From: Eledone cirrhosa
Lineage: Eukaryota
Direction: 5' to 3'
Length of the DNA: 64,000 nt
NCBI GenBank assembly: GCA_964016885.1
Contig: OZ024741.1
Coordinates: 100,254,001 to 100,318,000, forward strand
Shown here: in pieces, positions 7,530 to 64,000 of the stretch
How the letters are laid out: each line of letters starts with the position of its first letter
Numbering within the stretch: position 1 is the stretch's first letter
Notes under the pieces: model-generated
What the model was told of the DNA's origin: nothing
Database searches by the model: none
Seen by the model: only the letters and a program-made list of their open reading frames with translations
Translations under genes and position numbers: made by a program

Positions 7530-9470
7530 TGTCATGAAGTCGTAGACTAATATTCTATTAGGTGGAGACGTTCTCTGGCAATGAACGGAAATAATACCTC
7601 ATTATGAGGAACGGTGAGAACAATTACACACAAAGACAAAACCACGTAGATAGTATAACAGAAGTCGTAGACTAAAATTCTATTTAGGAAATGGAATGAT
7701 TCTCGGCTACAGAGTTAAGAATAAAATAAATAAAATACAGGGGTAATTGAAATATATATATATATACACGCATCCAATACGTACATACACAACCATTACT
7801 GAAAACACTCGCTATGGGTATGCAAATACAAGCACGTCAACCCGATTCCTACAATTACAGTTAGTACGAGCTACAGAGTTGCACGTGTTCCTACGGCTAG
7901 GTAATTTAGCTAAATTTGAAGCTGTGATGTTATGTGCAAGTTTAGGAATCGTAGAGTAAGAAATTTTAATGGTATTTCTATTAAAATTTTTCTATATTTA
8001 TGAGCTGGGGGGAAATGGCTTCATAATAAGGGAGAGAAAGATCTTAGCTAATGGTGTGGCCACCTCCATATTATATGGTGGGTTATTTTTCCTATGTCTA
8101 TTCTCGTACTCTGTATATGCTACCTTATCCACAAATCCACTCCGAGCAAGAGCTTCATTGTAATATGTGGAATGGTCGTTGAAAATATGCTCGTTTGTAG
8201 ATAGACGGGAAAGCCTCAAAGAAACGTTTCTTACCAGGTTCTTGGTTATGCTGGCAGGATGGTTAGAATGCTTACTTAATTAATTAAGAGTAGCATTCGG
8301 CTTTCTATACGGGTAGTGCAAGCCATACGACAAATTGAGGGTAACGTCGAGGTAATTAACGACTGAGAGGTTGGCTTCAACCTGTATGGAGAGGTTGAAG
8401 CCTTTAAAGAAGGCTGTGAGTTCTTTTCTGAACCTGTCACAAGCACGTGGGCCGCAATTTGTCATGGCCAAAAGACCGTCATCACGGTACAAACCACCTC
8501 CCACGTTGGGGAATTCCTCCTTGATAGAGAAAAGAAGGGAAAGGCCGATAAGATCAGTAACCTCCGCAGAATCACTGGCGCCCATACTCACGTCGAATGG
8601 GGTACTATTAGATTTGTTTATCCAAATAGAGTCGTCAAAATTAATTACCAACTTATGGGCATTGAGGATGACATCAACTTCGAAATCCTTAACCGCTGTG
8701 AGTGTTTTAGCGAAATTGAAGCTCTAAGTAGAAGTGGTAAAGTAATGGAGGAATAGTAATTATTGATGTATGTCGAATTGGATAAAACGTCAATGTTCCC
8801 TGTTGCATAAGCCGTTGAACCAATCAATCACCGCGAAAGAATTGTTCCACGGTGCAAGAGGGGCTAAACTTCTAATTTCAGGTATTCTATCTAAAATCCT
8901 TTTACTAAGTCTACTTAAATCGGATATATATAACAGATTAAAGTTTAAGCAAATAATTGCTGCTTTCACCCTTAATAGGATTTTCTGAAACTAAAAAAAT
9001 CAATCTGTGAACGCAGAAGTAAATATTTCGAATAAAATTGCAACCGAAGGAAGATAGGAATACTTAGGTTCGTGGACACGTTCCCAGGCAAAAGAAGATA
9101 ATACGTCATTATTTGGAGCGGGGAAAACAATTACACGCAAAGACAAAACCACGTTTGTGGTATAAATCGTGGACTAATATTCTATTAGGTGTTTCGTGGA
9201 GACGTTCTCTGGCAATGAACGGAAAAAACAAAGGTAGTATCGTCTTCCTGTCTTCCTTCGGTCGCAACGTTTTTCGAAATATTTACTTCTGCTTTCACAG
9301 ATTGAATTTTTTAGTTTCAGAAGATCTCGTTAAAGGTGAAAGCAGCGATTCTTTGCTAACACTTTAATTCTGTTATTTTAATAAATATGTGCTCTACGGT
9401 TCTTATATATTTGATATATATTTATCCTTATCGAACCCTCTTTGAATATTAGTCTTCAAATTTATTATTA
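7530..9470 (-). mobile_element. Naiad-type Penelope-like element: internally deleted RT flanked by pseudo-LTR pieces, with an inverted pLTR arm at 9230-9470
   Basis: RT at 7835-8930. Segments 7530-7740 and 8930-9230 match 39840-40330, and 9230-9460 is the same sequence in the opposite orientation. Confidence 0.8.
7835..8930 (-). pseudogene. Naiad-clade PLE reverse transcriptase/thumb fragment
   Basis: FDVSMGASDSAEVTDLIGL...GLYRDDGL...VNYLDVTLNL...PYRKPN...SNHP...RLSRLS...FNRNTIKISYS...CNCR. The YRDDG catalytic motif is typical of Naiad PLEs. Frameshifts are present. Confidence 0.85.
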
Positions 9471-9763
9471 TTACTATATATATATATATATATATATAAA
9501 CCGAAAAAATGAAACGAAATTTCATTTCCCACTCTTAGTACGGCTGTTACTTAAATATAAGTATGTACAAGTACATACATATATGTATACAGACGTACAG
9601 TAGTATGTATATATGTATACATACATGCACACATATATATATGTACGTATGGATTCACCGAACATTTATGATAATACTCGGTGTGTTTGTAAACAAACAT
9701 CCCGTATTAAGCCGTAGTGTGTAGCAACCATCGTTGCTCGTTTGTTCAACTCTGACAAAGGAA

Positions 9764-9804
9764 CGCTGTACTAGTTTCAAGCTTATTAGCTATCGTCAGC
9801 AACG
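9764..9804 (-). ncRNA. Type I hammerhead ribozyme
   Basis: Reverse complement reads cgttg-CTGACGA-t agct aata agct t-GAAAC ta GTA-cagcg. Confidence 0.8.
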
Positions 9805-10065
9805 TATACGTTCCTGCCAGATTGTTGAACGTATATACTTACCTTATGCATATTAACGGCTATACATATATGTATGTACGTGTACATAATTATATTTAAT
9901 TAACAGCCGTACTAGGAGTGGGAAATGAAATTTCGTTTAATTTTTTCATTTTATCGTTTTCGGTTCACCCGGCCGATTAACCCACTCGATATGCAAATTG
10001 GGCTACTCAGCCGTTAATAAACATAAGGTAAGTATATACGTTCAACAATCTGGCAGGAAGGTATA

Positions 10066-10106
10066 CGTTGCTGACGATAGCTAATAAGCTTGAAACTAGT
10101 ACAGCG
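10066..10106 (+). ncRNA. Type I hammerhead ribozyme (minimal, palindromic stem III ACTAGT)
   Basis: Stem I cgttg/cagcg, core CTGACGA, stem II agct/agct, GAAAC-ta-GTA cleavage triplet. Confidence 0.85.
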
Positions 10107-10487
10107 TTCCTTTTTCAGTGTTGACCAAACGAGCAACGATGGTTGCTAGACACTACGGCTTAATACGGGATGTTTGTTTACAAACACACCGAGCATTATC
10201 ATAAATGTGTTCGGTGAATCTAAACGTACATATATATATGTGTGCATGTATGTATACATATATACATACTACTGTACGTCTGTATACATATATGTATGTA
10301 CGTGTACATACTTATATTTAAGTAACAGCCGTACTGAGAGTGGGAAATGAAATTTCGTTTAATTTTTTCAGTCTATCGTTTTCGGTGCACCCGGCCGATT
10401 AACCCACTCGATATGCAAATTGGGCTACTCAGCCGTTAATATGCATAAGGTAAGTATATACGTTCAACAATCTGACAGGAAGGTATA

Positions 10488-10528
10488 CGTTGCTGACGAT
10501 AGCTAATAAGCTTGAAACAAGTACAGCG
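10488..10528 (+). ncRNA. Type I hammerhead ribozyme (second tandem copy)
   Basis: Same fold as 10066; loop III reads aa instead of ta. Confidence 0.75.
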
Positions 10529-10729
10529 TTCCTTTGTCAGTGTTGAACAAACGAGCAACGATGGTTGCTAGACACTAAGGCTTAATACGGGATGTTTGTT
10601 TTTCAAACACACCGTGTATTATCATAAATGTTCGGTGAATCCATACGTACATATATATATGTGTGCATGTATGTATACATATATACATACTACTGTACGC
10701 CTGTATACATATATGTATGTACGTGTACA

Positions 10730-10779
<50 letters not shown>

Positions 10780-19061: not shown

Positions 19062-19181
<120 letters not shown>

Positions 19182-19182
19182 C

Positions 19183-19477
19183 TTAAAATAACAGATTAAA
19201 GTTTAAGCAAAGAATCGCGGATATTTTACGTCGTGAAGTGGTAGTATATGTTATGTTAATACCACTACTTATTCGTATAGTTAAGTATATATTACCTGTA
19301 TGTTTTGTGAAGGGAACGTTTTCACGAACCAAAGTATTGTCTTCCTGTATTCTTTAGGTTGCAACGTTTTTTTAAATATTTACTTCTGCGTTCACATATT
19401 GACTATTTTAGTTTCAGAAGATCCCGTTAAGGGTGAAAGCAGCGATTCTTTGTTTAAACTTTAATCTGTTATTTTAA

Positions 19478-19478
<1 letters not shown>
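19183..19478 (+). mobile_element. Miniature Naiad-derived element: short inverted arm + deleted 3' UTR + HHR, within (TA)n
   Basis: 19183-19217 is the reverse complement of 19443-19477. The interior matches 40760-40860 (reverse complement) and 41800-41960. Confidence 0.75.
19410..19460 (+). ncRNA. HHR-like motif with CAGAAGA core
   Basis: agttt-CAGAAGA-tccc gttaa gggt-GAAA gca..tgt TT-aaact. Confidence 0.55.
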
Positions 19479-19574
<96 letters not shown>

Positions 19575-26550: not shown

Positions 26551-26555
26551 ATATA

Positions 26556-27066
26556 TAAATGGAATAGAATGAAACGAAATTTCATTTCTCACTCTTAGTA
26601 CGGCAGTTACTTAAACGTAAGTATGTATGTATGTATGTATACGTACATACATATATGTATACAGACGTACAGTAGTATGTATATACATACATACATGCAC
26701 ACACATATATATATATGTACGTATCGGTTTACCGAACATTTATTATAATGTTCGGTTTGTTTGTAAACAAACAAACAGCCCGAATTACGCCGTACAGTGT
26801 TTAGGCAACCACCTCACCCTTTTGTTCAACACTGACACAGGAACGATGTACTAGTTTCAGGCTTATTAGCTATCGTCAGCATCGTATACCTTCCTGTCAG
26901 TTGGTTGAACGTCTGAAAGTATATACTTTCATTATGCATATTAACGGCTTAGCAGCCTAATTTGCATATCGAGTGAGTTTAGTCGGCCGGGCCCACCGAA
27001 AACGATAAATGGAATAGAATGAAACGAAATTTCATTTCTCACTCTTAGTAAGGTAGTTATTTAAAC
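26556..27066 (-). mobile_element. Diverged monomer of the 422-bp HHR family with about 60-bp terminal direct repeat
   Basis: Homologous to 9500-9860 and to the tandem unit. aaatggaatagaatgaaacg...tagta occurs at 26557 and 27007. Confidence 0.85.
26844..26884 (-). ncRNA. Type I hammerhead ribozyme
   Basis: cgatg-CTGACGA-tagctaataagcct-GAAAC ta GTA-catcg. Confidence 0.85.
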
Positions 27067-32085: not shown

Positions 32086-33086
32086 CTCTTTGTATGTTAA
32101 TGTACGCGTGTGTATGTGTGTGTGTATATATGTGCGTGTGTGCGCATACACGTGTGTGTGTGTGTGTGTGTGTGTGAGAGAATGTGTGTGTGTGGGTGGA
32201 CCAGTAATTATTTTTGCGGTACTGGTGAAATGGTGTACATTTTTCGATATTTTCAGTAAAATCGATTCTCTCAATAGAACATCAAAAACCTTAATAATAA
32301 AAGGTGTGAAATGATATATAGTATTGGCATAATACCAAGGTGTGTGTGAGTGTGTCCAGATTGTACGTACTGCAAGGGGAATCCATTAGGCCTTGCCGTA
32401 TTGGAATACCTGTGTATAAATATGTATCTGGAGTGTGTCCAGAAATTGTATACCTGTGTACAAATTGTATACTTGTGTACAAATTGTACACATGTATCTG
32501 GAGTGTGTCCAGACTGTACGTACTGCAAGGGGAATCCATTAGGCCTTGCCGTATTGGAATACTTGTGTACAAATATGTATGTGCCCATCAGTGTGCAATG
32601 CATGTGTGCGTTTATGTATGTGTGTGTGTCGGCACGTTTATATCTATAGACATCAAAAGGTATGCAAATTTGTGTATTATTGTGTTGCACCATAGAACAT
32701 GTGTGTTTACGTATGTCATTGTGTTTATATGTGGGTAGAGATGTATGCTGATGTAGGTATGTATGTTGACATGTGTATGTTGTGGGTTCGTCTTAGGGAG
32801 AAGTGTTTAGACGGGGTCCGTATTTGTCAATAAAGTAAGATTCCTTGCTGATGCGCTGGGTGTGGGTGGCATTATCTTTAAATTTGTAGAGGGGAAAGTT
32901 TCTGAAGTTGGGATGATTTTGGGCGGCACAGGTATCAATGTGTTCACTCAGTGGTATTTTCCTGTATTCCCGTATTTTAATTTGGGATCTATGGACAGTC
33001 ATGCGTTGACGGAGGCTGTTTTTGGTCTGGCCTATGTATTGTTCTCGACAACCTGAGCAAGTTAATACATATATTAGATTTTCTGA
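31405..33086 (-). mobile_element. 5'-truncated Neptune-type PLE: endonuclease end + long CA-rich 3' region + degenerate HHR (31518-31554), between (TA)n tracts
   Basis: GIY-YIG frame, then a 3' region with a 161-bp duplication (about 32350-32580), CCAAT/E2F-like motifs and TTGAAAA gcatt gga aatgc GcAAC cg cTA. Confidence 0.7.
32793..33086 (-). pseudogene. GIY-YIG endonuclease domain of a PLE (5'-truncated, frame uninterrupted)
   Basis: SENLIYVLTCSGCREQYIGQTKNSLRQRMTVHRSQI...LSEHID...RISKESYFIDKYGPRLN*. Confidence 0.9.
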
Positions 33087-33219
33087 TATATATATATATA
33101 TATATATATCTCTGATTGTTTAATTTATTAATTTTTCATTGAGCCAAAACGTGACCTGTTGCAAAACATATATATATCTATGACTTTATATATATATATA
33201 TATATTTATAAATAAATAA

Positions 33220-39723: not shown

Positions 39724-39766
<43 letters not shown>

Positions 39767-39873
39767 ATAATAATAAATTTCAAGACTAAAATCCAAAGAG
39801 GGCTCGATAAGGATAAATATATATCAAATATATAAGAACCGTAGAGCAAATATTTATTAAAATAACAGATTAA

Positions 39874-39924
39874 AGTTTAAGCAAATAATCGCTGCTTTCA
39901 CCCTTATCGGGATCTTCTGAAACT
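39874..39924 (-). ncRNA. HHR-like motif with CAGAAGA core
   Basis: Mirror copy of 41894-41944. Confidence 0.55.
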
Positions 39925-40872
39925 AACAAAGTCAATCTGTAAACGCAGAAGTGGATATTTCAAAAAACGTTGCAACCGGAGGAAGACAGGAAGACGATAC
40001 TTTGGTTCGTGGAAACGTTCACTGGTAAAGAACGGGAAAAAACGAATAAGATACGTCATTAATAGGAGCGGTGAAAAACAATTACGCGCAAAGACAGAAC
40101 CACGTTTATGGTATAAAAGAGGTCGTAGACCAATGTTCTGTTAGGTGGTTCATAGAGACGTTCTCTGGCAATGAACGAAAAAGAACGAAGATAATACGTC
40201 ATATGTGGAGCGTGGAGAACAATAGCACGCAAAGACAAAACCGCGTAAATGGTATAGCAGAAGTCGTAGACTAAAATTCTAACTAGGAGACCGAATGAAT
40301 CTCCGCTACAGAGTTAAGAACAAAGTAAATAAATACAATACAGAAGTAATAGAAATAAATAAATACATACACGCAAACAAATACGTACATACACAAGCAT
40401 ACGCAAAACCCTTACCATAGGTATACAAAACCACGCACATATAAATATGTGTGTGTGTGTATGCGTGTATACAAATAAATAAATAATTATATAAACGTAT
40501 ATAAATAAATAAATACGTATATAACAAGTGCACACACATACCTACATGTAAATACACGAATGTTCGGAGACGTAAGTCAACCAAAACATGAAGTACACAT
40601 ATACACACACCCTACATACGTACAAACCTGCATACTCACACAGACGCAAAACTCCCGTATACACATAGCCAAACCATATGTTCCAGAATAAAAAAAATAA
40701 AAAAATTTAATACGCCATAACATAAACAATCAAATATACGTACGAGAAGGTATACGTACCTTCACGAAACATACGGGTAATATATACTTACCTATGCAAA
40801 TAAGTAATGGTATAAACAAAACATATACTTAGCTCCCACATCAAGACGTAAAATATCCATGTATAGATCGTA

Positions 40873-41250
40873 CTATCCGTTAGGGTATAACGTGGGGCTG
40901 TAATACAGGAAAGTTTTGTGCAATTTATGTTTACAAGCCGAAAAGGCCTCAGAATTTTTGTTTAAGATGTGGTGTGTGGCGTACACTATTTCCAGGGCCT
41001 CAGCGGCGCAGAGGTTACATTTTCTTTTATTTCCGTTATATGATCTAGCCCTAGCTAGGATCTCCCAGTGTAACTTATATTAGGTGTGGTTGTCTTTTAG
41101 ACTCCAGATATAAGCTGAAAGTGACGTCATATTCCTTCTTAGAGGGTAACGAAAAGAATGGGTATGCGTGTAAAGACGCTGCTTGAATCTATTGGCGGTT
41201 AACCCTATGTAGGCCCTACGGGACGTGGGTGTTACAACCTACATTTGGTG
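40873..41250 (-). pseudogene. Naiad-type GIY-YIG endonuclease C-terminus (one in-frame TAA)
   Basis: RAYIGLTANRFKQRLYTHTHSFRY...TSLSAYIWSLKDNHT*YKLHWEILARARSYNGNKRKCNLCAAEALEIV...ILNKNSEAFSACKH. Confidence 0.88.
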
Positions 41251-41893
41251 TGACTTACGTCTCCGAACATTTGTGTATTTACATGTAGCTATGTGTGTGC
41301 GCTTGTTATATACGTATTTATTTATTTATATACGTTTATATAATTATTTATTTATTTGTATACACGCATACACACGCACACATATTTATATGTGCGTGGT
41401 TTTGTATACCTATGGTAAGGGTTTTGCGTATGCTCGTGTATGTACGTATTTGCTTGCGTGTATGTATTTATTTATTTCTATTACTTCTGTATTGTATTTA
41501 TTAACTCTGTAGCGGAGATTCATTCGGTCTCCTAGTTAGAATTTTAGTCTACGACTTCTGCTATACCATTTACCTGGTTTTGTCTTTGCGTGCTATTGTT
41601 CTCCACGCTCCACATATGACGTATTATCTTCGTTCTTTTTCGTTCATTGCCAGAGAACGTCTCTATGAACCACCTAACAGAACATTGATCTACGACCTCT
41701 TTTATACCATAAACGTGGTTCTGTCTTTGCGCGTAATTGTTTTTCACCGCTCCTATTAATGACGTATCTTATTCGTTTTTTCCCGTTCTTTGCCAGCGAA
41801 CGTTTCCACGAACCAAAGTATCGGCTTCCTGTCTTCCTCCGGTTGCAACGTTTTTTGAAATATCCACTTCTGCGTTTACAGATTGACTTTGTT

Positions 41894-41944
41894 AGTTTCA
41901 GAAGATCCCGATAAGGGTGAAAGCAGCGATTCTTTGCTTAAACT
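41894..41944 (+). ncRNA. HHR-like motif with CAGAAGA core
   Basis: agttt-CAGAAGA-t ccc gataa ggg t-GAAA gca gcgattctt tgc TT-aaact. Confidence 0.6.
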
Positions 41945-41960
41945 TTAATCTGTTATTTTA

Positions 41961-42010
<50 letters not shown>

Positions 42011-55103: not shown

Positions 55104-58100
55104 GTGGTGCTTTATGTCCTAGTGTGTTATATTGTAGTGTTTTACATAGGTGGTGTTTTATGTCCTAGTGTGTTATGTTGTAGTATTTTACACAGGTGGT
55201 GCTTTATGTCCTAGTGTGTTATGTTGTAGTGTTTTACATAGGTGGTGCTTTATGTCCTAGTGTGTTATGTTGTAGTGTTTTACATAGGTGGTGCTTTATG
55301 TCCTAGTGTGTTATGTTGTAGTGTTTTACATAGGTGGTGCTTTATGTCCTAGTGTGTTATGTTGTAGTGTTTCACATAGGTGGTGCTTTATGTCCTAGTG
55401 TGTTATGTTGTAGTGTTTTACATAGGTGGTGCTTTATGTCCTAGTGTGTTATGTTGTAGTATTTTACATAGGTTGTGCTTTATGTCCTAGTGTGTTATGT
55501 TGTAGTATTTTACATAGGGGGTGCTTTATGTCCTAGTGTGTTATGTTGTAGTGTTTTACATAGGTAGTGCTTTATGTCCTAGTGTGTTATGTTGTAGTGT
55601 TTTACATAGGTGGTGCTTTATGTCCTAGTGTGTTATGTTGTAGTATTTTACATAGGTGGTGCTTTATATCCTAGTGTGTTATGTTGTAGTGTTTTACATA
55701 GGTGGTGCTTTATTTCCTAATGTGTTATGTTGTAGTGTTTTACATAGGTGGTGCTTTATGACGAAGTGTGTTATGTTGTAGTATTTTACATAGGTGGTGT
55801 TTTATGTCCTAGTATGTTATGTTGTAGTGTTTTACATAGGTGGTGCTTTATATCCTAGTGTGTTATGTTGTAGTGTTTTACATAGGTGGTTCTTTATGTC
55901 CTAGTGTGTTATGTTGTAGTATTTTACATAGGTGGTGCTTTATGTCCTAGTGTGTTATGTTGTAGTGTTTTACATAGGTGGTGCTTTATGTCCTAGTGTG
56001 TTATGTTGTACTGTTTTACATAGGTGGTGCTTTATGTCCTTGTGTGTTATGTTGTAGTGTCTTACATAGGTAGTGCTTTATGTCCTAGTGTGTTATGTTG
56101 TAGTATCTTACATAGGTGGTGCTTAATGTCCTAGTGTGTTATATTGTAGTATTTTACATAGGTTGTGCTTTATCTCCTAGTGTGTTATGTTGTAGTGTTT
56201 TACATAGGTGGTGTTTAAGTCCTAGTGTGTTATGTTATAGTGTTTTACATAGGTGGTGCTTTATGTCCTAGTGTGTTATGTTCTAGTATTTTACATAGGT
56301 GGTGCTGTATGTCCTAGTTTGTTATGTTCTAGTATTTTACATAGGTGGTGCTTTATGTCCTAGTGTGTTATGTTGTAGTATTTTACATAGGTGGTGCTTT
56401 ATGTCCTAATGTGTTATGTTGTAGTGTTTTACATAGGTGGTGCTTTATGTCCTTGTGTGTTATGTTGTAGTGTCTTACATAGGTAGTGCTTTATGTCCTA
56501 GTGTGTTATGTTGTAGTATCTTACATAGGTGGTGCTTAATGTCCTAGTGTGTTATATTGTAGTATTTTACATAGGTTGTGCTTTATCTCCTAGTGTGTTA
56601 TGTTGTAGTGTTTTACATAGGTGGTGCTTTAAGTCCTAGTGTGTTATGTTGTAGTGTTTTACATAGGTGGTGCTTTATGTCCTAGTGTGTTATGTTCTAG
56701 TATTTTACATAGGTGGTGCTGTATGTCCTAGTGTGTTATGTTGTAGTGTTTTACATAGGTGGTGCTTTATGTCCTAGTGTGTTATGTTGTAGTATGTTAC
56801 ATAGGTGGTGCTTTATCTCCTAGTGTGTTATGTGGTAGTGTTTTACATAGGTGGTGCTTTATGTCCTAGTGTGTTATGTTGTAGTGTTTTACATAGGTGG
56901 TGCTTTATGTCCTAGTGTGTTATGTTGTAGTGTTTTACATAGGTGGTGCTTTATGTCCTAGTGTGTTATGTTGTACTGTTTTACATAGGTGGTGCTTTAT
57001 GTCCTTGTGTGTTATGTTGTAGTGTCTTACATAGGTAGTGCTTTATGTCCTAGTGTGTTATGTTGTAGTATCTTACATAGGTGGTGCTTAATGTCCTAGT
57101 GTGTTATATTGTAGTATTTTACATAGGTTGTGCTTTATCTCCTAGTGTGTTATGTTGTAGTGTTTTACATAGGTGGTGCTTTAAGTCCTAGTGTGTTATG
57201 TTATAGTGTTTTACATAGGTGGTGCTTTATGTCCTAGTGTGTTATGTTCTAGTATTTTACATAGGTGGTGCTGTATGTCCTAGTGTGTTATGTTCTAGTA
57301 TTTTACATAGGTGGTGCTTTATGTCCTAGTGTGTTATGTTGTAGTATTTTACATAGGTGGTGCTTTATGTCCTAATGTGTTATGTTGTAGTGTTTTACAT
57401 AGGTGGTGCTTTATGTCCTTGTGTGTTATGTTGTAGTGTCTTACATAGGTAGTGCTTTATGTCCTAGTGTGTTATGTTGTAGTATCTTACATAGGTGGTG
57501 CTTAATGTCCTAGTGTGTTATATTGTAGTATTTTACATAGGTGGTGCTTTATGTCCTAGTGTGTTATGTTGTATTGTTTTACATAGGTGGTGCTTTATGT
57601 CCTAGTGTGTTATGTTCTAGTATTTTACATAGGTGGTGCTGTATGCCCTAGTGTGTTATGTTCTAGTATTTTACATAGGTGGTGCTTTATGTCCTAGTGT
57701 GTTATGTTGTAGTATTTTACATAGGTGGTGCTTTATGTCCTAATGTGTTATGTTGTAGTGTTTTACATAGGTGGTGCTTTATGTCCTAGCGTGTTATGTT
57801 GTAGTGTTTTACATAGGTGGTGCTTTATGTCCTAGAGTGTTATGTTGTAGTGTTTTTCATAGGTGGTGCTTTATGTCCTAGTGTGTTATGTTGTAGTGTT
57901 TTACATAAGTGGTGCTTTATGTCCTAATGTGTTTTGTTGTAGTGTTTTACATAGGTGGTGCTTTATGTCCTAGTGTGTTATGTTGTAGTGTTTTACATAG
58001 GTGGTGCTTTATGTCCTAGTGTGTTATGTTGTAGTGTTTTACATAGGTGCTGCTTTATGACCTAGTGTGTTATGTTGTAGTATTTTACATAGGTGGTGTT

Positions 58101-61100
58101 TTATGTCCTAGTGTGTTATGTTGTAGTGTTTTACATAGGTGGTGCTTTATCTCCTAGTGTGTTATGTTGTAGTGTTTTACATAGGTGGTTCTTTATGTCC
58201 TAGTGTGTTATGTTGTAGTATTTTACATAGGTGGTGCTTTATGTCCTAGTGTGTTATGTTGTAGTGTTTTACATAGGTGGTGCTTTATGTCCTAGTGTGC
58301 TATGTTGTAGTGTTTTACATAGGTAGTGCTTTATGTCCAGGTGTGTTATGTTGTAGTATCTTACATAGGTGGTGCTTAATGTCCTAGTGTGTTATGTTGT
58401 AGTGTTTTACATAGGTGGTGCTTTATGTCCTAGTGTGTTATGTTGTAGTGTTTTACATAGGTGGTGCTTTATGTCCTAGTGTGTTATGTTGTAGTGTGTT
58501 ACATAGGTGGTGCTTTATGATCTAGTGTGTTATGTTGTAGTATTTTACATAGGTGGTGTTTTATGTCCTAGTGTGTTACGTTGTAGTGTTTTACATAGGT
58601 GGTGCTTTATGTCTTAGTGTGTTATGTTGTAGTGTTTTACATAGGTGGTGCTTTATGTCCTAGTGTGTTATGTTGTAGTGTTTTACATAGGTAGTGCTAT
58701 ATGTCCTAGTGTGTTATGTTGTAGTATCTTACATAGGTGGTGCTTAATGTCCTAGTGTGTTATATTGTAGTATTTTACATAGGTTGTGCTTTATCTCCTA
58801 GTGTGTTATGTTGTAGTGTTTTACATAGGTGGTGCTTTATGTCCTAGTGTGTTATGTTGTAGTGTTTTACATAAGTGGTGCTTTATGTCCTAGTGTGTTA
58901 TGTTCTAGTATTTTACATAGGTGGTGCTGTATGCCCTAGTGTGTTATGTTCTAGTATTTTACATAGGTGGTGCTTTATGTCCTAGTGTGTTATGTTGTAG
59001 TATTTTACATAGGTGGTGCTTTATGTTCTAATGTGTTATGTTGTAGTGTTTTACATAGGTGGTGCTTTATGTCCTAGTGTGTTATGCTGTAGTGTTTTAC
59101 ATAGGTGGTGCTTTATGTCCTAGTGTGTTATGTTGTAGTGTTTTTCATAGGTGGTGCTTTATGTCCTAATGTGTTATGTTGTAGTGTTTTATATAGGTGG
59201 TGCTTTATGTCCTAGTGTGTTATGTTGTAGAGTTTACATAGGTGGTGCTTTATGTCCTAGTGTGTTATGTTGTAGTATTTTACATAGTGTGTGCTTTATG
59301 TCCTAGTGTGTTATGTTGTAGTGTTTACATAGGTGGTGCTTTATGACCTAGTGTGTTATGTTGTAGTATTTTACATAGGTGGTGCTTTATGTCCTAGTGT
59401 GTTATGTTGTAGTATTTTACATAGGTGGTGCTTTATGTCCTAGTGTGTTATGTTGTAGTATTTTACATAGGTGGTGCTTTATGTCCTAGTGTGTTATGTT
59501 GTATTGTTTTACATGGGTGGTGCTTTATGTCCTAGTGTGTTATATTGTAGTGTTTTACATAGGTGGTGCTTTATGTCCTAGTGTGTTATGTTGTAGTGTT
59601 TTTCATAGGTGGTGCTTTATGTCCTAATGTGTTATGTTGTAGTGTTTTACATATGTGGTGCTTTATGTCCTAGTTTGTTATGTTGTAGTGTTTACATAGA
59701 TGGTGCTTTATGTCCTAGTGTGTTATGTTGTAGTGTTTTACATAGGTGGTGCTTTATGTCCTAGTGTGTTATGTTGTAGTGTTTTTCATAGGTGGTGCTT
59801 TATGTCCTAATGTGTTATGTTGTAGTGTTTTATATAGGTGGTGCTTTATGTCCTAGTGTGTTATGTTGTAGTGTTTACATAGGTGGTGCTTTATGTCCTA
59901 GTGTGTTATGTTGTAGTATTTTACATAGTGTGTGCTTTATGTCCTAGTGTGTTATGTTGTAGTGTTTACATAGGTGGTGCTTTATGACCTAGTGTGTTAT
60001 GTTGTAGTATTTTACATAGGTGGTGCTTTATGTCCTAGTGTGTTATGTTGTAGTATTTTACATAGGTGGTGCTTTATGTCCTAGTGTGTTATGTTGTAGT
60101 ATTTTACATAGGTGGTGCTTTATGTCCTAGTGTGTTATGTTGTATTGTTTTACATGGGTGGTGCTTTATGTCCTAGTGTGTTATATTGTAGTGTTTTACA
60201 TAGGTGATGCTTTATGTCCTAGTGTGTTATGTTGTAGTGTTTTACATAGGTGGTGCTCTATGTCCTAGTGTGTTATGTTGTAGTATTTTACATAGGTGGT
60301 GCTTTATGTCCTAGTGTGTTATGTTGTAGTATTTTACATAGGTGGTGCTTAATGTCCTGGTGTGTTATGTTGTAGTGTTTTACATAGGTGATGCTTTATG
60401 TCCTAATGTGTTATGTTGTAGTGTTTTACATAGGTGGTGCTTTATGTCCTAGTGTGTTATGCTGTAGTGTTTTACATACGTGGTGCTTTATGTCCTAGTG
60501 TGTTATGTTGTAGTGTTTTACATAGGTGGTGCTTTATGTCCTAGTGTGTTATGTTGTAGTATGTTACATAGGTGGTGCTTTATGTCCTAGTGTGTTATGT
60601 GGTAGTGTTTTACATAGGTGGTGCTTTATGTCCTAGTGTGTTATGTTGTAGTGTTTTACATAGGTGGTGCTTTATGTCCTAGTGTGTTATGTTGTAGTAT
60701 TTTACATAGGTGGTGCTTTATGTCCTAGTGTGTTATGTTGTAGTATTTTACATAGGTTGTGCTTTATGTCCTAGTGTGTTATGTTGTAGTATTTTACATA
60801 GGGGTGCTTTATGTCCTAGTGTGTTATGTTGTAGTGTTTTACATAGGTAGTGCTTTATGTCCTAGTGTGTTATGTTGTAGTGTTTTACATAGGTGGTGCT
60901 TTATGTCCTAGTGTGTTATGTTGTAGTGTTTTACATAGGTGCTGCTTTATGTCCTAGTGTGTTATGTTGTAGTGTTTTAAATAGGTGGTGTTTTATGTCC
61001 TAGTGTGTTATGTTGTAGTGTTTTACATAGGTGGTGCTTTATGTCCTAGTGTGTTATGTTGTAGTGTTTTACATAGGTGGTGCTTTATGTCCTAGTGTGT

Positions 61101-64000
61101 TATGTTGTAGTGTTTTACATAGGTGGTGCTTTATGTCCTAATGTGTTATGTTGTAGTGTTTTACATAGGGGGTGCTTTATGTCCTAGTGTGTTATTTTGT
61201 AGTGTTTTACATAGGTAGTGCTTTATGTCCTAGTGTGTTATGTTGTAGTGTTTTACATAGGTGGTGCTTTATGTCCTAGTGTGTTATGTTGTAGTGTTTT
61301 TCATAGGTGGTGCTTTATGTCCTAATGTGTTATGTAGTGTTTTACATAGGTGGTGCTTCATGACCTAGTGTGTTATGTTGTAGTATTTTACATAGGTGGT
61401 GTTTTATGTCCTAGTGAGTTATGTTGTAGTGTTTTACATAGGTGGTGCTTTATGTCCTAGTGTGTTATGTTGTAGTCTTTTACATAGGTGGTGCTTTATG
61501 TCCTAATGTGTTATGTTGTAGTGTTTTACATAGATGGTGCTTTATCTCCTAGTGTGTTATGTTGTAGTATTTTACATAGGTTGTGCTTCATGTCCTAGTG
61601 TGTTATGTTGTAGTATTTTACATAGGGGGTGCTTTATATCCTAGTGTGTTATTTTGTAGTGTTTTACATAGGTAGTGCTTTATGTCCTAGTGTGTTATGT
61701 TGTAGTGTTTTACATAGGTGGTGCTTTATGTCCTAGTGTGTTATGTTGTAGTGTTTTACATAGGTGGTGCTTTATGTCCTAGTGTGTTATGTTGTAGTGT
61801 TTTACATAGGTGGTTCTTTATGTCCTAGTGTGTTATGTTGTAGTATTTTACATAGGTGGTGCTTTATGTCTTAGTGTGTTATGTTGTAGTGTTTTATATA
61901 GGTGGTGCGTTATGTCCTAGTGTGTTATGTTGTAGTATCTTACATAGGTGGTGCTTAATGTCCTAGTGTGTTATATTGTAGTATTTTACATAGGTTGTGC
62001 TTTATCTCCCAGTGTGTTATGTTGTAGTGTTTTACATAGGTGGTGCTTTATGTCCTAGTGTGTTATGTTGTAGTGTTTTACATAGGTGGTTCTTTATGTC
62101 CTAGTGTGTTATGTTCTAGTATTTTACATAGGTGGTGCTGTATGCCATAGTGTGTTATGTTCTAGTATTTTACATAGGTGGTGCTTTATGTCCTAGTGTG
62201 TTATGTTGTAGTATTTTACATAGGTGGTGCTTTATGTCCTAATGTGTTATGTTGTAGTGTTTAACATAGGTGGTGCTTTATGTCCTAGTGTGTTATGTTG
62301 TAGTGTTTTACATAGGTGGTGCTTTATGTCCTAGTGTGTTATGTTGTAGTGTTTTTCATAGGTGGTGCTTTATGTCCTAATGTGTTATGTTGTAGTGTTT
62401 TACATAGGTGGTGCTTTGTGTCCTAGTGTGTTATGTTGTAGTGTTTACATAGGTGGTGCTTTATGTCCTAGTGTCTTATGTTGTAGTATTTTACATAGGT
62501 GGTGCTTTATGTCCTAGTGTGTTATATTGTAGTGTTTACATAGGTGGTGCTTTATGACCTAGTGTGTTATGTTGTAGTATTTTACATAGGTAGTGCTTTA
62601 TGTCCTAGTGTGTTATGTTGTAGTATTTTACATAGGTTGTGCTTTATGTCCTAGTGTGTTATGTTGTAGTATTTTACATAGGGGTGCTTTATGTCCTAGT
62701 GTGTTATGTTGTAGTGTTTTACATAGGTAGTGCTTTATGTCCTAGTGTGTTATGTTGTAGTGTTTTACATAGGTGGTGCTTTATGTCCTAGTGTGTTATG
62801 TTGTAGTGTTTTACATAGGTGCTGCTTTATGTCCTAGTGTGTTAAGTTGTAGTGTTTTAAATAGGTGGTGTTTTATGTCCTAGTGTGTTATGTTGTAGTG
62901 TTTTACATAGGTGGTGCTTTATGTCCTAGTGTGTTATTTGTAGTGTTTTACATAGGTGGTGCTTTATGTCCTAGTGTGTTATGTTGTAGTGTTTTACATA
63001 GGTGGTGCTTTATGTCCTAATGTGTTATGTTGTAGTGTTTTACATAGGTGGTGCTTTATGTCCTAGTGTGTTATGTTGTAGTAGTTTACATAGGTTGTGC
63101 TTTATGTCCTAGTGTGTTATGTTGTAATATTTTACATAGGGGGTGCTTTATGTCCTAGTGTGTTATTTTGTAGTGTTTTACATAGGTAGTGCTTTATGTC
63201 CTAGTGTGTTATGTTGTAGTGTTTTACATAGGTGGTGCTTTATGTCCTAGTGTGTTATGTTGTAGTGTTTTTCATAGGTGGTGCTTTATGTCCTAATGTG
63301 TTATGTTGTAGTGTTTTACATAGGTGGTGCTTTATGACCTAGTGTGTTATGTTGTAGTATTTTACATAGGTGGTGTTTTATGTCCTAGTGTGTTATGTTG
63401 TAGTGTTTTACATAGGTGGTGCTTTATCTCCTAGTGTGTTATGTTGTAGTATTTTACATAGGTTGTGCTTTATGTCCTAGTGTGTTATGTTGTAGTATTT
63501 TACATAGGTGGTGCTTTATGTCCTAGTGTGTTATGTTGTAGTGTTTTACATAGGTGCTGCTTTATGTCCTAGTGTGTTAAGTTGTAGTGTTTTAAATAGG
63601 TGGTGTTTTATGTCCTAGTGTGTTATGTTGTAGTGTTTTACATAGGTGGTGCTTTATGTCCTAGTGTGTTATTTGTAGTGTTTTACATAGGTGGTGCTTT
63701 ATGTCCTAGTGTGTTATGTTGTAGTGTTTTTCATAGGTGGTGCTTTATGTCCTAATGTGTTATGTTGTAGTGTTTTACATAGGTGGTGCTTTATGACCTA
63801 GTGTGTTATGTTGTAGTATTTTACATAGGTTGTGCTTTATGTCCTAGTGTGTTATGTTGTAGTATTTTACATAGGGGGTGCTTTATATCCTAGTGTGTTA
63901 TTTTGTAGTGTTTTACATAGGTAGTGCTTTATGTCCTAGTGTGTTATGTTGTAGTGTTTTACATAGGTGGTGCTTTATGTCCTAGTGTGTTATGTTGTAG
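55104..64000. repeat. 46-bp tandem satellite, about 190 copies, running off the window end
   Basis: Consensus ATAGGTGGTGCTTTATGTCCTAGTGTGTTATGTTGTAGTGTTTTAC; unit starts at 55146 and 55192. Confidence 0.97.

What the first reader, a model, noticed from the sequence alone, without database searches (positions are those of the whole stretch)
9498..10735. 422-bp tandem HHR monomer: retrozyme / circular RNA candidate
Two HHRs in the same orientation lie exactly 422 bp apart (cores at 10071 and 10493) with no ORF between them, and a third HHR lies on the inverted arm. Cleavage at both GUA sites would release a 422-nt monomer with ends suitable for circularisation, as described for non-LTR retrozymes. 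The palindromic ACUAGU stem III would permit dimeric HHR folding, although the second copy reads ACAAGU.
Basis: partly seen in the sequence, partly recalled or inferred. Interest (0 to 1): 0.75.

Follow-up and report, generated by a model that had tools for sequence, protein, structure and literature searches.

The report
Penelope-pasted hammerhead retrozyme repeat
This is one of thousands of copies of a small protein-less repeat that carries a predicted self-cutting RNA motif, and the fixed ends of its copies suggest that a Penelope-type jumping-gene enzyme likely pasted it in from a circular RNA, a known kind of element.

Summary
Type I hammerhead (HHR) cores lie at 10071 and 10493 (+, 422 nt apart) and 9799 (-), with no ORF of 100 aa or more. 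The unit belongs to a dispersed family: 9,371 exact 34-nt HHR matches in the 3-Gb genome, control 0. No autonomous Penelope-like element (PLE) carrying it as its terminal repeat was found in 124 PLE loci. It is a new member of the animal non-LTR retrozymes. 111 of 136 arms end at two sites 56 nt apart, about 215 and 270 nt after the cut site, mostly in (TA)n. Head-to-head arms use one site each (22 of 23 pairs; also 11 of 11 in an autonomous Neptune family). This matches the PLE 'tail' made by two internal reverse-transcription starts. Copies run through the cut site without loss (89% against 83% in a control), and units of one insertion share one haplotype. That fits a circular template, but an uncut multimer is not excluded. 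Cleavage, expression and circles were not tested, and the partner enzyme is unidentified. The scan noted similar families before in this and other genomes.

The parts
9475..9498 (.). Left (TA)n target tract, shared with the 3' end of the neighbouring Hydra-type PLE remnant
9496..9861 (-). Inverted arm, 0.87 unit (unit positions u330 to u422, then u1 to u275; u1 is the base after the HHR cut); ends at the far site B, with the tail
9742..9830 (-). Third type I HHR with extended helix I (core 9799-9769, intact ACUAGU)
9861..10735 (+). Direct arm, about 2.1 units (u182 to u219); joined head-to-head to the inverted arm at 9861; ends at the near site A
10040..10128 (+). HHR copy A: core 10071-10101, helix II AGC/GCU with a U-U base, helix III ACUAGU, predicted cut after GUA at 10101
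10102..10523 (+). Predicted 422-nt cut-to-cut monomer, 37.7% GC; folds as a circle at -128.6 kcal/mol (z -6.0 against 60 shuffles)
10321..10376 (+). 56-nt 'tail' between the two fixed end sites A and B (also at 9899-9954 + and 9496-9551 -); inferred to lie between two reverse-transcription start sites
10462..10550 (+). HHR copy B: core 10493-10523, private ACAAGU change in helix III
10730..10777 (.). Right (TA)n target tract
26555..27065 (-). Second insertion in the window, from a sister subfamily (about 82% to this one, 95-97% to its own kin); HHR core at 26879

Best explanation
This is one insertion of an abundant protein-less repeat family with a type I hammerhead motif in each 422-nt unit, likely pasted into a TA microsatellite by a borrowed Penelope-type enzyme copying a predicted circular RNA monomer. 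Shown in the sequence: tandem units, two head-to-head arms, 3' ends fixed at two sites 56 nt apart, variable 5' ends and (TA)n targets. Inferred steps: (1) loci with two or more units are transcribed. (2) The HHRs, probably as dimers through ACUAGU, cut out monomers, which a host ligase closes (as shown for coral, mussel and axolotl retrozymes, PMC7229834). (3) A PLE RT/GIY-YIG protein nicks both strands of AT-rich DNA and starts reverse transcription inside the RNA, one strand at site A and the other at site B. (4) Each copy runs round the circle through the former cut site for 0.1-5 turns and stops at a random point, and the two copies are joined at their 5' ends.
For: In 80 loci taken in genome order, 111 of 136 arms end in the A or B window (14% of the unit); 5' ends fall there 17 of 136 times, as chance predicts. 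48 of 58 A ends and 40 of 53 B ends run into (TA)4+. Of 36 head-to-head pairs, 22 are A+B, 1 A+A, 0 B+B and 13 have an unclassified end (p 3e-6 on the 23). An autonomous Neptune family shows the same rule in 11 of 11 two-armed loci examined. PMC11167929 shows in vitro that the PLE tail is the stretch between two internal RT start sites and that both strands are cut and extended. Target duplications of 9-13 nt are seen at 3 one-armed insertions outside microsatellites (L015, L139, L218). There is no run-off at the cut site: whole-genome exact counts are 6,672, 5,536 and 4,937, so extending 8 nt across the site keeps 89% against 83% for a control extension. Segments of one insertion agree at 26 subfamily-diagnostic sites 97% of the time (opposite arms) and 91% (tandem units), against 66% and 70% between loci. 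The HHR fold is kept: 96.6% of cells are paired in 114 copies, with a U-G/A-U/G-U exchange in helix I. None of the 26 diagnostic sites lies in the 31-nt core.
Against: Cleavage, transcription and circularisation were not observed. In the one PLE studied in vitro, HHR cleavage was not needed, uncut RNA was the main template, and no reads ended at the cut site (PMC11167929). An uncut multimer also explains the read-through and, if its source array is homogeneous, the shared haplotypes. Only 10 of 80 loci have two HHRs on one arm. Copy B here has an A-A mismatch in the dimer helix III. An A>G excess among variants shared within insertions (10 vs 2 T>C) vanished when recurrent alleles were removed (6 vs 8). 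22 of 295 within-insertion pairs are discordant, and two arms (L004, L211) switch subfamily mid-unit, so one template per insertion is not universal. The covariation is essentially one pair inherited by subfamilies. The partner protein was not identified.
Confidence: 0.6

Rival explanations
1. Same PLE-driven insertion, but the template is an uncut linear multimer (read-through of a tandem source array). The HHR is slow or protein-gated and no circle is needed.
For: PMC11167929: uncut RNA was the dominant substrate and the HHR cut only with protein present. 8 of 9 Xenopus dimers did not cleave in vitro. Helix III here is very weak. Long arrays exist as possible sources (dozens of units near C1:53.36 Mb). 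Read-through of the cut site is expected.
Against: The core is unchanged across subfamilies that differ by about 18%, and helix I changes keep pairing, which suggests selection for a working ribozyme. Since 5' truncation shortens every copy, arrays could not regrow without circular or repeated copying (inference). Related mollusc retrozymes are mostly circular RNA (PMC7229834).
Confidence: 0.25
2. The template is the cut linear monomer, and the RT jumps from its 5' end to the 3' end of the same or another monomer.
For: Some arms switch template. 3 of 236 segments start at or within 3 nt of the cut site (the sample was selected towards read-through).
Against: There is no loss of copies across the cut site genome-wide, and 220 of 236 junctions are seamless. 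The two clear subfamily switches lie inside the unit, not at the cut.
Confidence: 0.07
3. The unit is the terminal repeat (pLTR) of an autonomous PLE not yet found, and these are its truncated and tandem by-products.
For: The anatomy is that of PLE pLTRs (PMC8557442). Xenopus retrozymes match pLTRs. Only a small share of the PLE loci in this genome was sampled.
Against: 0 of 124 PLE loci and 0 of 142 unit-bearing loci show ORF, 3' UTR and unit as a recurring structure. The one candidate (L007) is 1 of 30 copies of a Hydra family whose 3' UTR normally continues differently. Units join u422 to u1 and B to u276 directly, with no room for an ORF.
Confidence: 0.06
4. An inert minisatellite amplified at the DNA level (slippage, unequal exchange).
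For: Some long arrays exist, and the unit has an internal low-complexity TA/TG tract.
Against: Copies are dispersed over many chromosomes and have fixed 3' ends, variable 5' ends, inverted arms and target duplications.
Confidence: 0.02

Closest known systems
Animal non-LTR retrozymes (Cervera and de la Pena 2020, PMC7229834: passages, section 14 and part 4 of 6 read; Li, Clavereau and Pollet, bioRxiv 10.64898/2026.07.22.740005: parts 1-3 of 5 read, supplements not seen)
   Same: Tandem non-coding units of a few hundred bases, GC below 45%, one type I HHR per unit, thousands of copies, mostly monomers and dimers, coexisting with PLEs; weak palindromic helix III and a U-U base of helix II as in the axolotl HHRs
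   Different: 422 nt is slightly above the 170-400 nt of the 2020 paper but within the 51-972 bp of the preprint. RNA and circles were not shown here. The fixed double 3' ends, inverted arms and one-site-per-arm rule are not in the parts I read. No parent pLTR was found.
EN+ Penelope-like elements (Neptune, Hydra, Poseidon): Craig et al. 2021, PMC8557442 (passages and section 11 read); Frangieh et al. 2024, PMC11167929 (parts 1-2 of 4 read)
   Same: Partial tandems, adjacent inverted 5'-truncated copy, a tail at one end only, (TA)n targeting, HHR upstream of two internal RT start sites
   Different: No ORF; tail 56 nt rather than 30-40; start sites about 215 and 270 nt after the HHR cut, farther than in the anole element, where the cut is 26 nt and initiation 111-118 nt into the ORF
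MRC1-type non-autonomous Chlamys elements (PMC8557442, passage)
   Same: Non-autonomous PLE with multicopy head-to-tail insertions
   Different: Those resemble their autonomous family at the 3' end, and most Chlamys lack canonical HHRs; here a canonical HHR is present and no matching autonomous family was found

Membership tests
Non-LTR retrozyme | [quoted passage not shown] | tested here: met
   copy B has one helix III mismatch
Non-LTR retrozyme | Short (about 150-1000 bp), low-GC, non-coding unit | tested here: met
   422 bp, 37.7% GC, no ORF of 100 aa or more
Non-LTR retrozyme | Dispersed multicopy family, monomers to multimers | tested here: met
   9,371 exact cores; 1-6 units in sampled loci and longer arrays listed
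Non-LTR retrozyme | No LTR, PBS or PPT; target duplications longer than 4 bp when present | tested here: inconclusive
   No LTR layout and 9-13-nt duplications at 3 loci; PBS and PPT were not searched
Non-LTR retrozyme | Self-cleavage in vitro | not testable with these tools
   Fold and conservation only
Non-LTR retrozyme | Expressed as unit-length linear and circular RNA | not testable with these tools
   No raw RNA reads were available
Non-autonomous PLE | Fixed 3' end with an optional tail, 5' truncation, adjacent inverted copy | tested here: met
Non-autonomous PLE | AT-rich or microsatellite targeting | tested here: met
   88 of 111 A/B ends run into (TA)4+
Non-autonomous PLE | Sequence homology to the pLTR of an autonomous family | tested here: inconclusive
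   None in 124 PLE loci from about 9 families; only a ~16-nt resemblance to a Neptune end; sampling is partial
Autonomous PLE | RT and GIY-YIG ORF between the repeats | tested here: not met

The most novel reading that the evidence does not exclude
The insertion scars record rolling-circle, target-primed copying of a ribozyme-made circular RNA by a dimeric Penelope enzyme that always starts one DNA strand at each of two fixed RNA sites. This would be genomic evidence for the retrozyme life cycle that has so far only been proposed, and a general one-site-per-strand rule that explains the PLE tail and inverted arm.
Probability: 0.45. Interest if true: 0.6.

Novelty: new member of a known kind. 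Interest (0 to 1): 0.38.

Why it matters
The element class is published. What this family adds is a large, young, countable data set on how such RNAs are pasted in: two fixed start sites used one per arm, and copying straight through the ribozyme cut site. This ties retrozymes to the PLE mechanism shown in vitro, and makes the open question (circle or uncut multimer as template, and which PLE helps) directly testable with a 422-nt RNA. I did not find the one-site-per-arm rule or an octopus retrozyme in six literature searches. The library lacks most subscription papers and I did not see supplements.

Tried and rejected
RNA evidence: no RNA holder was listed. The one run guessed to be RNA laid 0 contigs, and all runs were contigs. 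This is no evidence either way. Rfam: no hammerhead hit; weak miRNA hits come from the TA/TG tract and were rejected. Neighbouring PLE at 7537-9498 as partner: rejected. [quoted passage not shown] The 784-aa Neptune family as partner: inconclusive. Two direct junctions (L045, L135) pair a short end with a short end, against the one-each rule, so deletion between neighbouring insertions explains them as well. No canonical HHR was seen at its repeat-ORF junction. Apparent hybrids L139 and L215 are nested insertions. L007 is not a parent. Raw within- versus between-locus distance was uninformative because private mutations dominate and was replaced by diagnostic sites. The A-to-I editing signature was not robust. 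The TSD screen overall gave 16 of 140 against about 6% in shuffles, and most hits were in low-complexity flanks; only 3 were accepted. Four of 118 HHR segments with indels were left out of alignment A2. Several A-end calls sit in pure TA runs and are imprecise, and some of the 25 'other' ends are alignment breaks between subfamilies. The 80-locus sample is anchored on an exact HHR and comes from the first 43 Mb of C1.

Full report
Observation. The two + cores are 422 nt apart, with no ORF of 100 aa or more. Each reads CUGACGA, then U-AGC-UAAUAA-GCU-U (helix II with a U-U base), GAAA, C-UA-G and the triplet GUA. Helix I is long, about 22 pairs with an internal loop. Over 114 family copies 96.6% of cells pair, against 30-44% for slid controls, and one helix I pair alternates U-G (65), A-U (36) and G-U (7). 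Helix III is one A-U pair around the palindrome CUAG. PMC7229834 describes this layout in axolotl HHRs that cleave well only as dimers. A crude evaluation of the core helices favours the dimer (-4.5 versus +1.4 kcal/mol). Copy B's ACAAGU occurs in 4 of 230 segments and leaves one A-A mismatch in the dimer. Rfam does not detect the motif.

Family. The host is a 3.0-Gb animal genome; it is probably an octopus, which is my guess from recall and was not tested. The 34-nt core occurs exactly 9,371 times, control 0. The best copies are 94-96% identical. A sister subfamily at about 82% has its own near-identical kin and a copy at window 26555-27065, and a third variant has a 472-nt period. None of the 26 subfamily-diagnostic sites falls in the 31-nt core (part of that sample was selected on the core). 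The third variant changes only the variable core base, loop II and paired helix I bases.

Anatomy. I number the unit from the base after the cut (u1). This locus is a minus arm u330 to u275 (0.87 unit) and a plus arm u182 to u219 (2.1 units), joined head-to-head at 9861, with both outer ends in (TA)n. In 80 loci taken in genome order, 58 of 136 arms end near u219 (site A), 53 near u275 (site B) and 25 elsewhere. The 5' ends are spread evenly, with 17 of 136 in the same windows. Of 36 head-to-head pairs, 22 are A+B, 1 is A+A, none is B+B and 13 have an unclassified end. The autonomous PLE families of this genome also end at two positions before (TA)n, and a 784-aa Neptune family has one short and one long end in 11 of 11 two-armed loci examined out of 14 fetched. 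PMC8557442 lists partial tandems, an inverted copy and a one-sided tail as PLE hallmarks. PMC11167929 shows that the tail lies between two internal RT start sites. Three one-armed insertions outside microsatellites have 9-13-nt target duplications. Insertion by a PLE-type enzyme is therefore well supported (about 0.9, inference from these scars).

Template. Reverse transcription starts about 215-270 nt downstream of the cut and proceeds towards it, so a cut linear monomer should leave many copies ending at u1. Whole-genome exact counts are 6,672 for u9-34, 5,536 for u1-34 and 4,937 with 8 more bases across the cut. Retention is 83% for the control step and 89% across the site. The control step contains a CpG and a polymorphic site, so the test only bounds run-off at a few percent. 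Segments within an insertion share diagnostic alleles at 97% (136 opposite-arm pairs) and 91% (159 tandem pairs), against 66% and 70% between loci. Rare alleles are shared 13-19% of the time against 2% expected. Most differences between units are therefore later mutations. Exceptions exist: 22 discordant pairs in 9 loci, with two clear mid-unit switches. These data fit a ligated circle, as shown for mussel, coral and axolotl retrozymes, but also an uncut homogeneous multimer, which was the working substrate in the anole PLE assay. An A>G excess that would have favoured one edited RNA copied repeatedly did not survive removal of recurrent alleles. I put the circle at 0.6 and the uncut multimer at 0.25.

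Partner and origin. No PLE carrying this unit as its repeat was found in 124 PLE-centred loci or 142 unit-bearing loci. The adjacent remnant at 7537-9498 is a Hydra-type PLE that shares only the (TA)n tract. Two junctions with the Neptune family (L045, L135) are suggestive but break the one-site-per-arm rule and could be deletions. The helper is unknown; an abundant (TA)n-targeting Neptune or Hydra family is the likeliest (inference).

This locus. It is among the minority able to release a monomer in principle (10 of 80 loci have two HHRs on one arm). With about 5% divergence between its units and a helix III mutation, it is more likely an aged daughter copy than a source (inference).

Verdict. 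This is a new member of a known class, the non-LTR retrozyme or non-autonomous PLE. The end rule and the read-through count add modest mechanistic value, and I did not find them in print. Earlier scan notes report similar families and a similar reading; a search by sequence found no note on this family. Those notes are not independent support. Interest 0.38.

Noticed in passing
window 7537-9498 (RT remnant 8280-8723, minus); relatives at 19069-19518 and 39740-41968; fuller copy L061:7232-9133: Hydra-clade PLE family (DKT, CxCX5C, C-terminal GIY-YIG) with inverted arms ending in (TA)n; my scan found no canonical hammerhead in its repeat, although Hydra elements are reported to have one
   Followed up: partly
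window 32793-33119 minus; L031-L061, L229-L242: Very abundant young Neptune-type PLE (784-aa RT-EN frame plus an upstream frame, 13,139 first-look candidates, 1.2-kb 3' UTR); no canonical HHR seen at its repeat-ORF junction; obeys the one-short, one-long end rule
   Followed up: partly
window 55104-64000: 46-bp satellite, about 194 copies, 93% matches, with strong strand skew
   Followed up: no
window 38338; L036, L057, L064, L096, L100-L102, L108, L231: Several other recurring HHR-like motifs in unrelated (TA)n-associated repeats and in the 3' UTR of another Neptune family; folds not checked
   Followed up: no
L237 (minus strand, near 1307-1338 of the reversed locus): An isolated 32-nt copy of this family's HHR core sits inside another repeat without helix I partners; possibly a short template capture
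   Followed up: partly
G000:C1:53354800-53370400 and C1:50603100-50606400: A long tandem array (dozens of units) and a large two-armed array of this unit; candidate source loci
   Followed up: no
L004, L211: Single arms that switch subfamily in mid-unit, indicating template switching or recombination away from the ribozyme site
   Followed up: partly
window 10027-10036 and 10110-10118: A splice-donor-like AAG/GTAAGT upstream of the HHR and an acceptor-like site after it; the donor is absent from the sister subfamily, so probably incidental
   Followed up: partly
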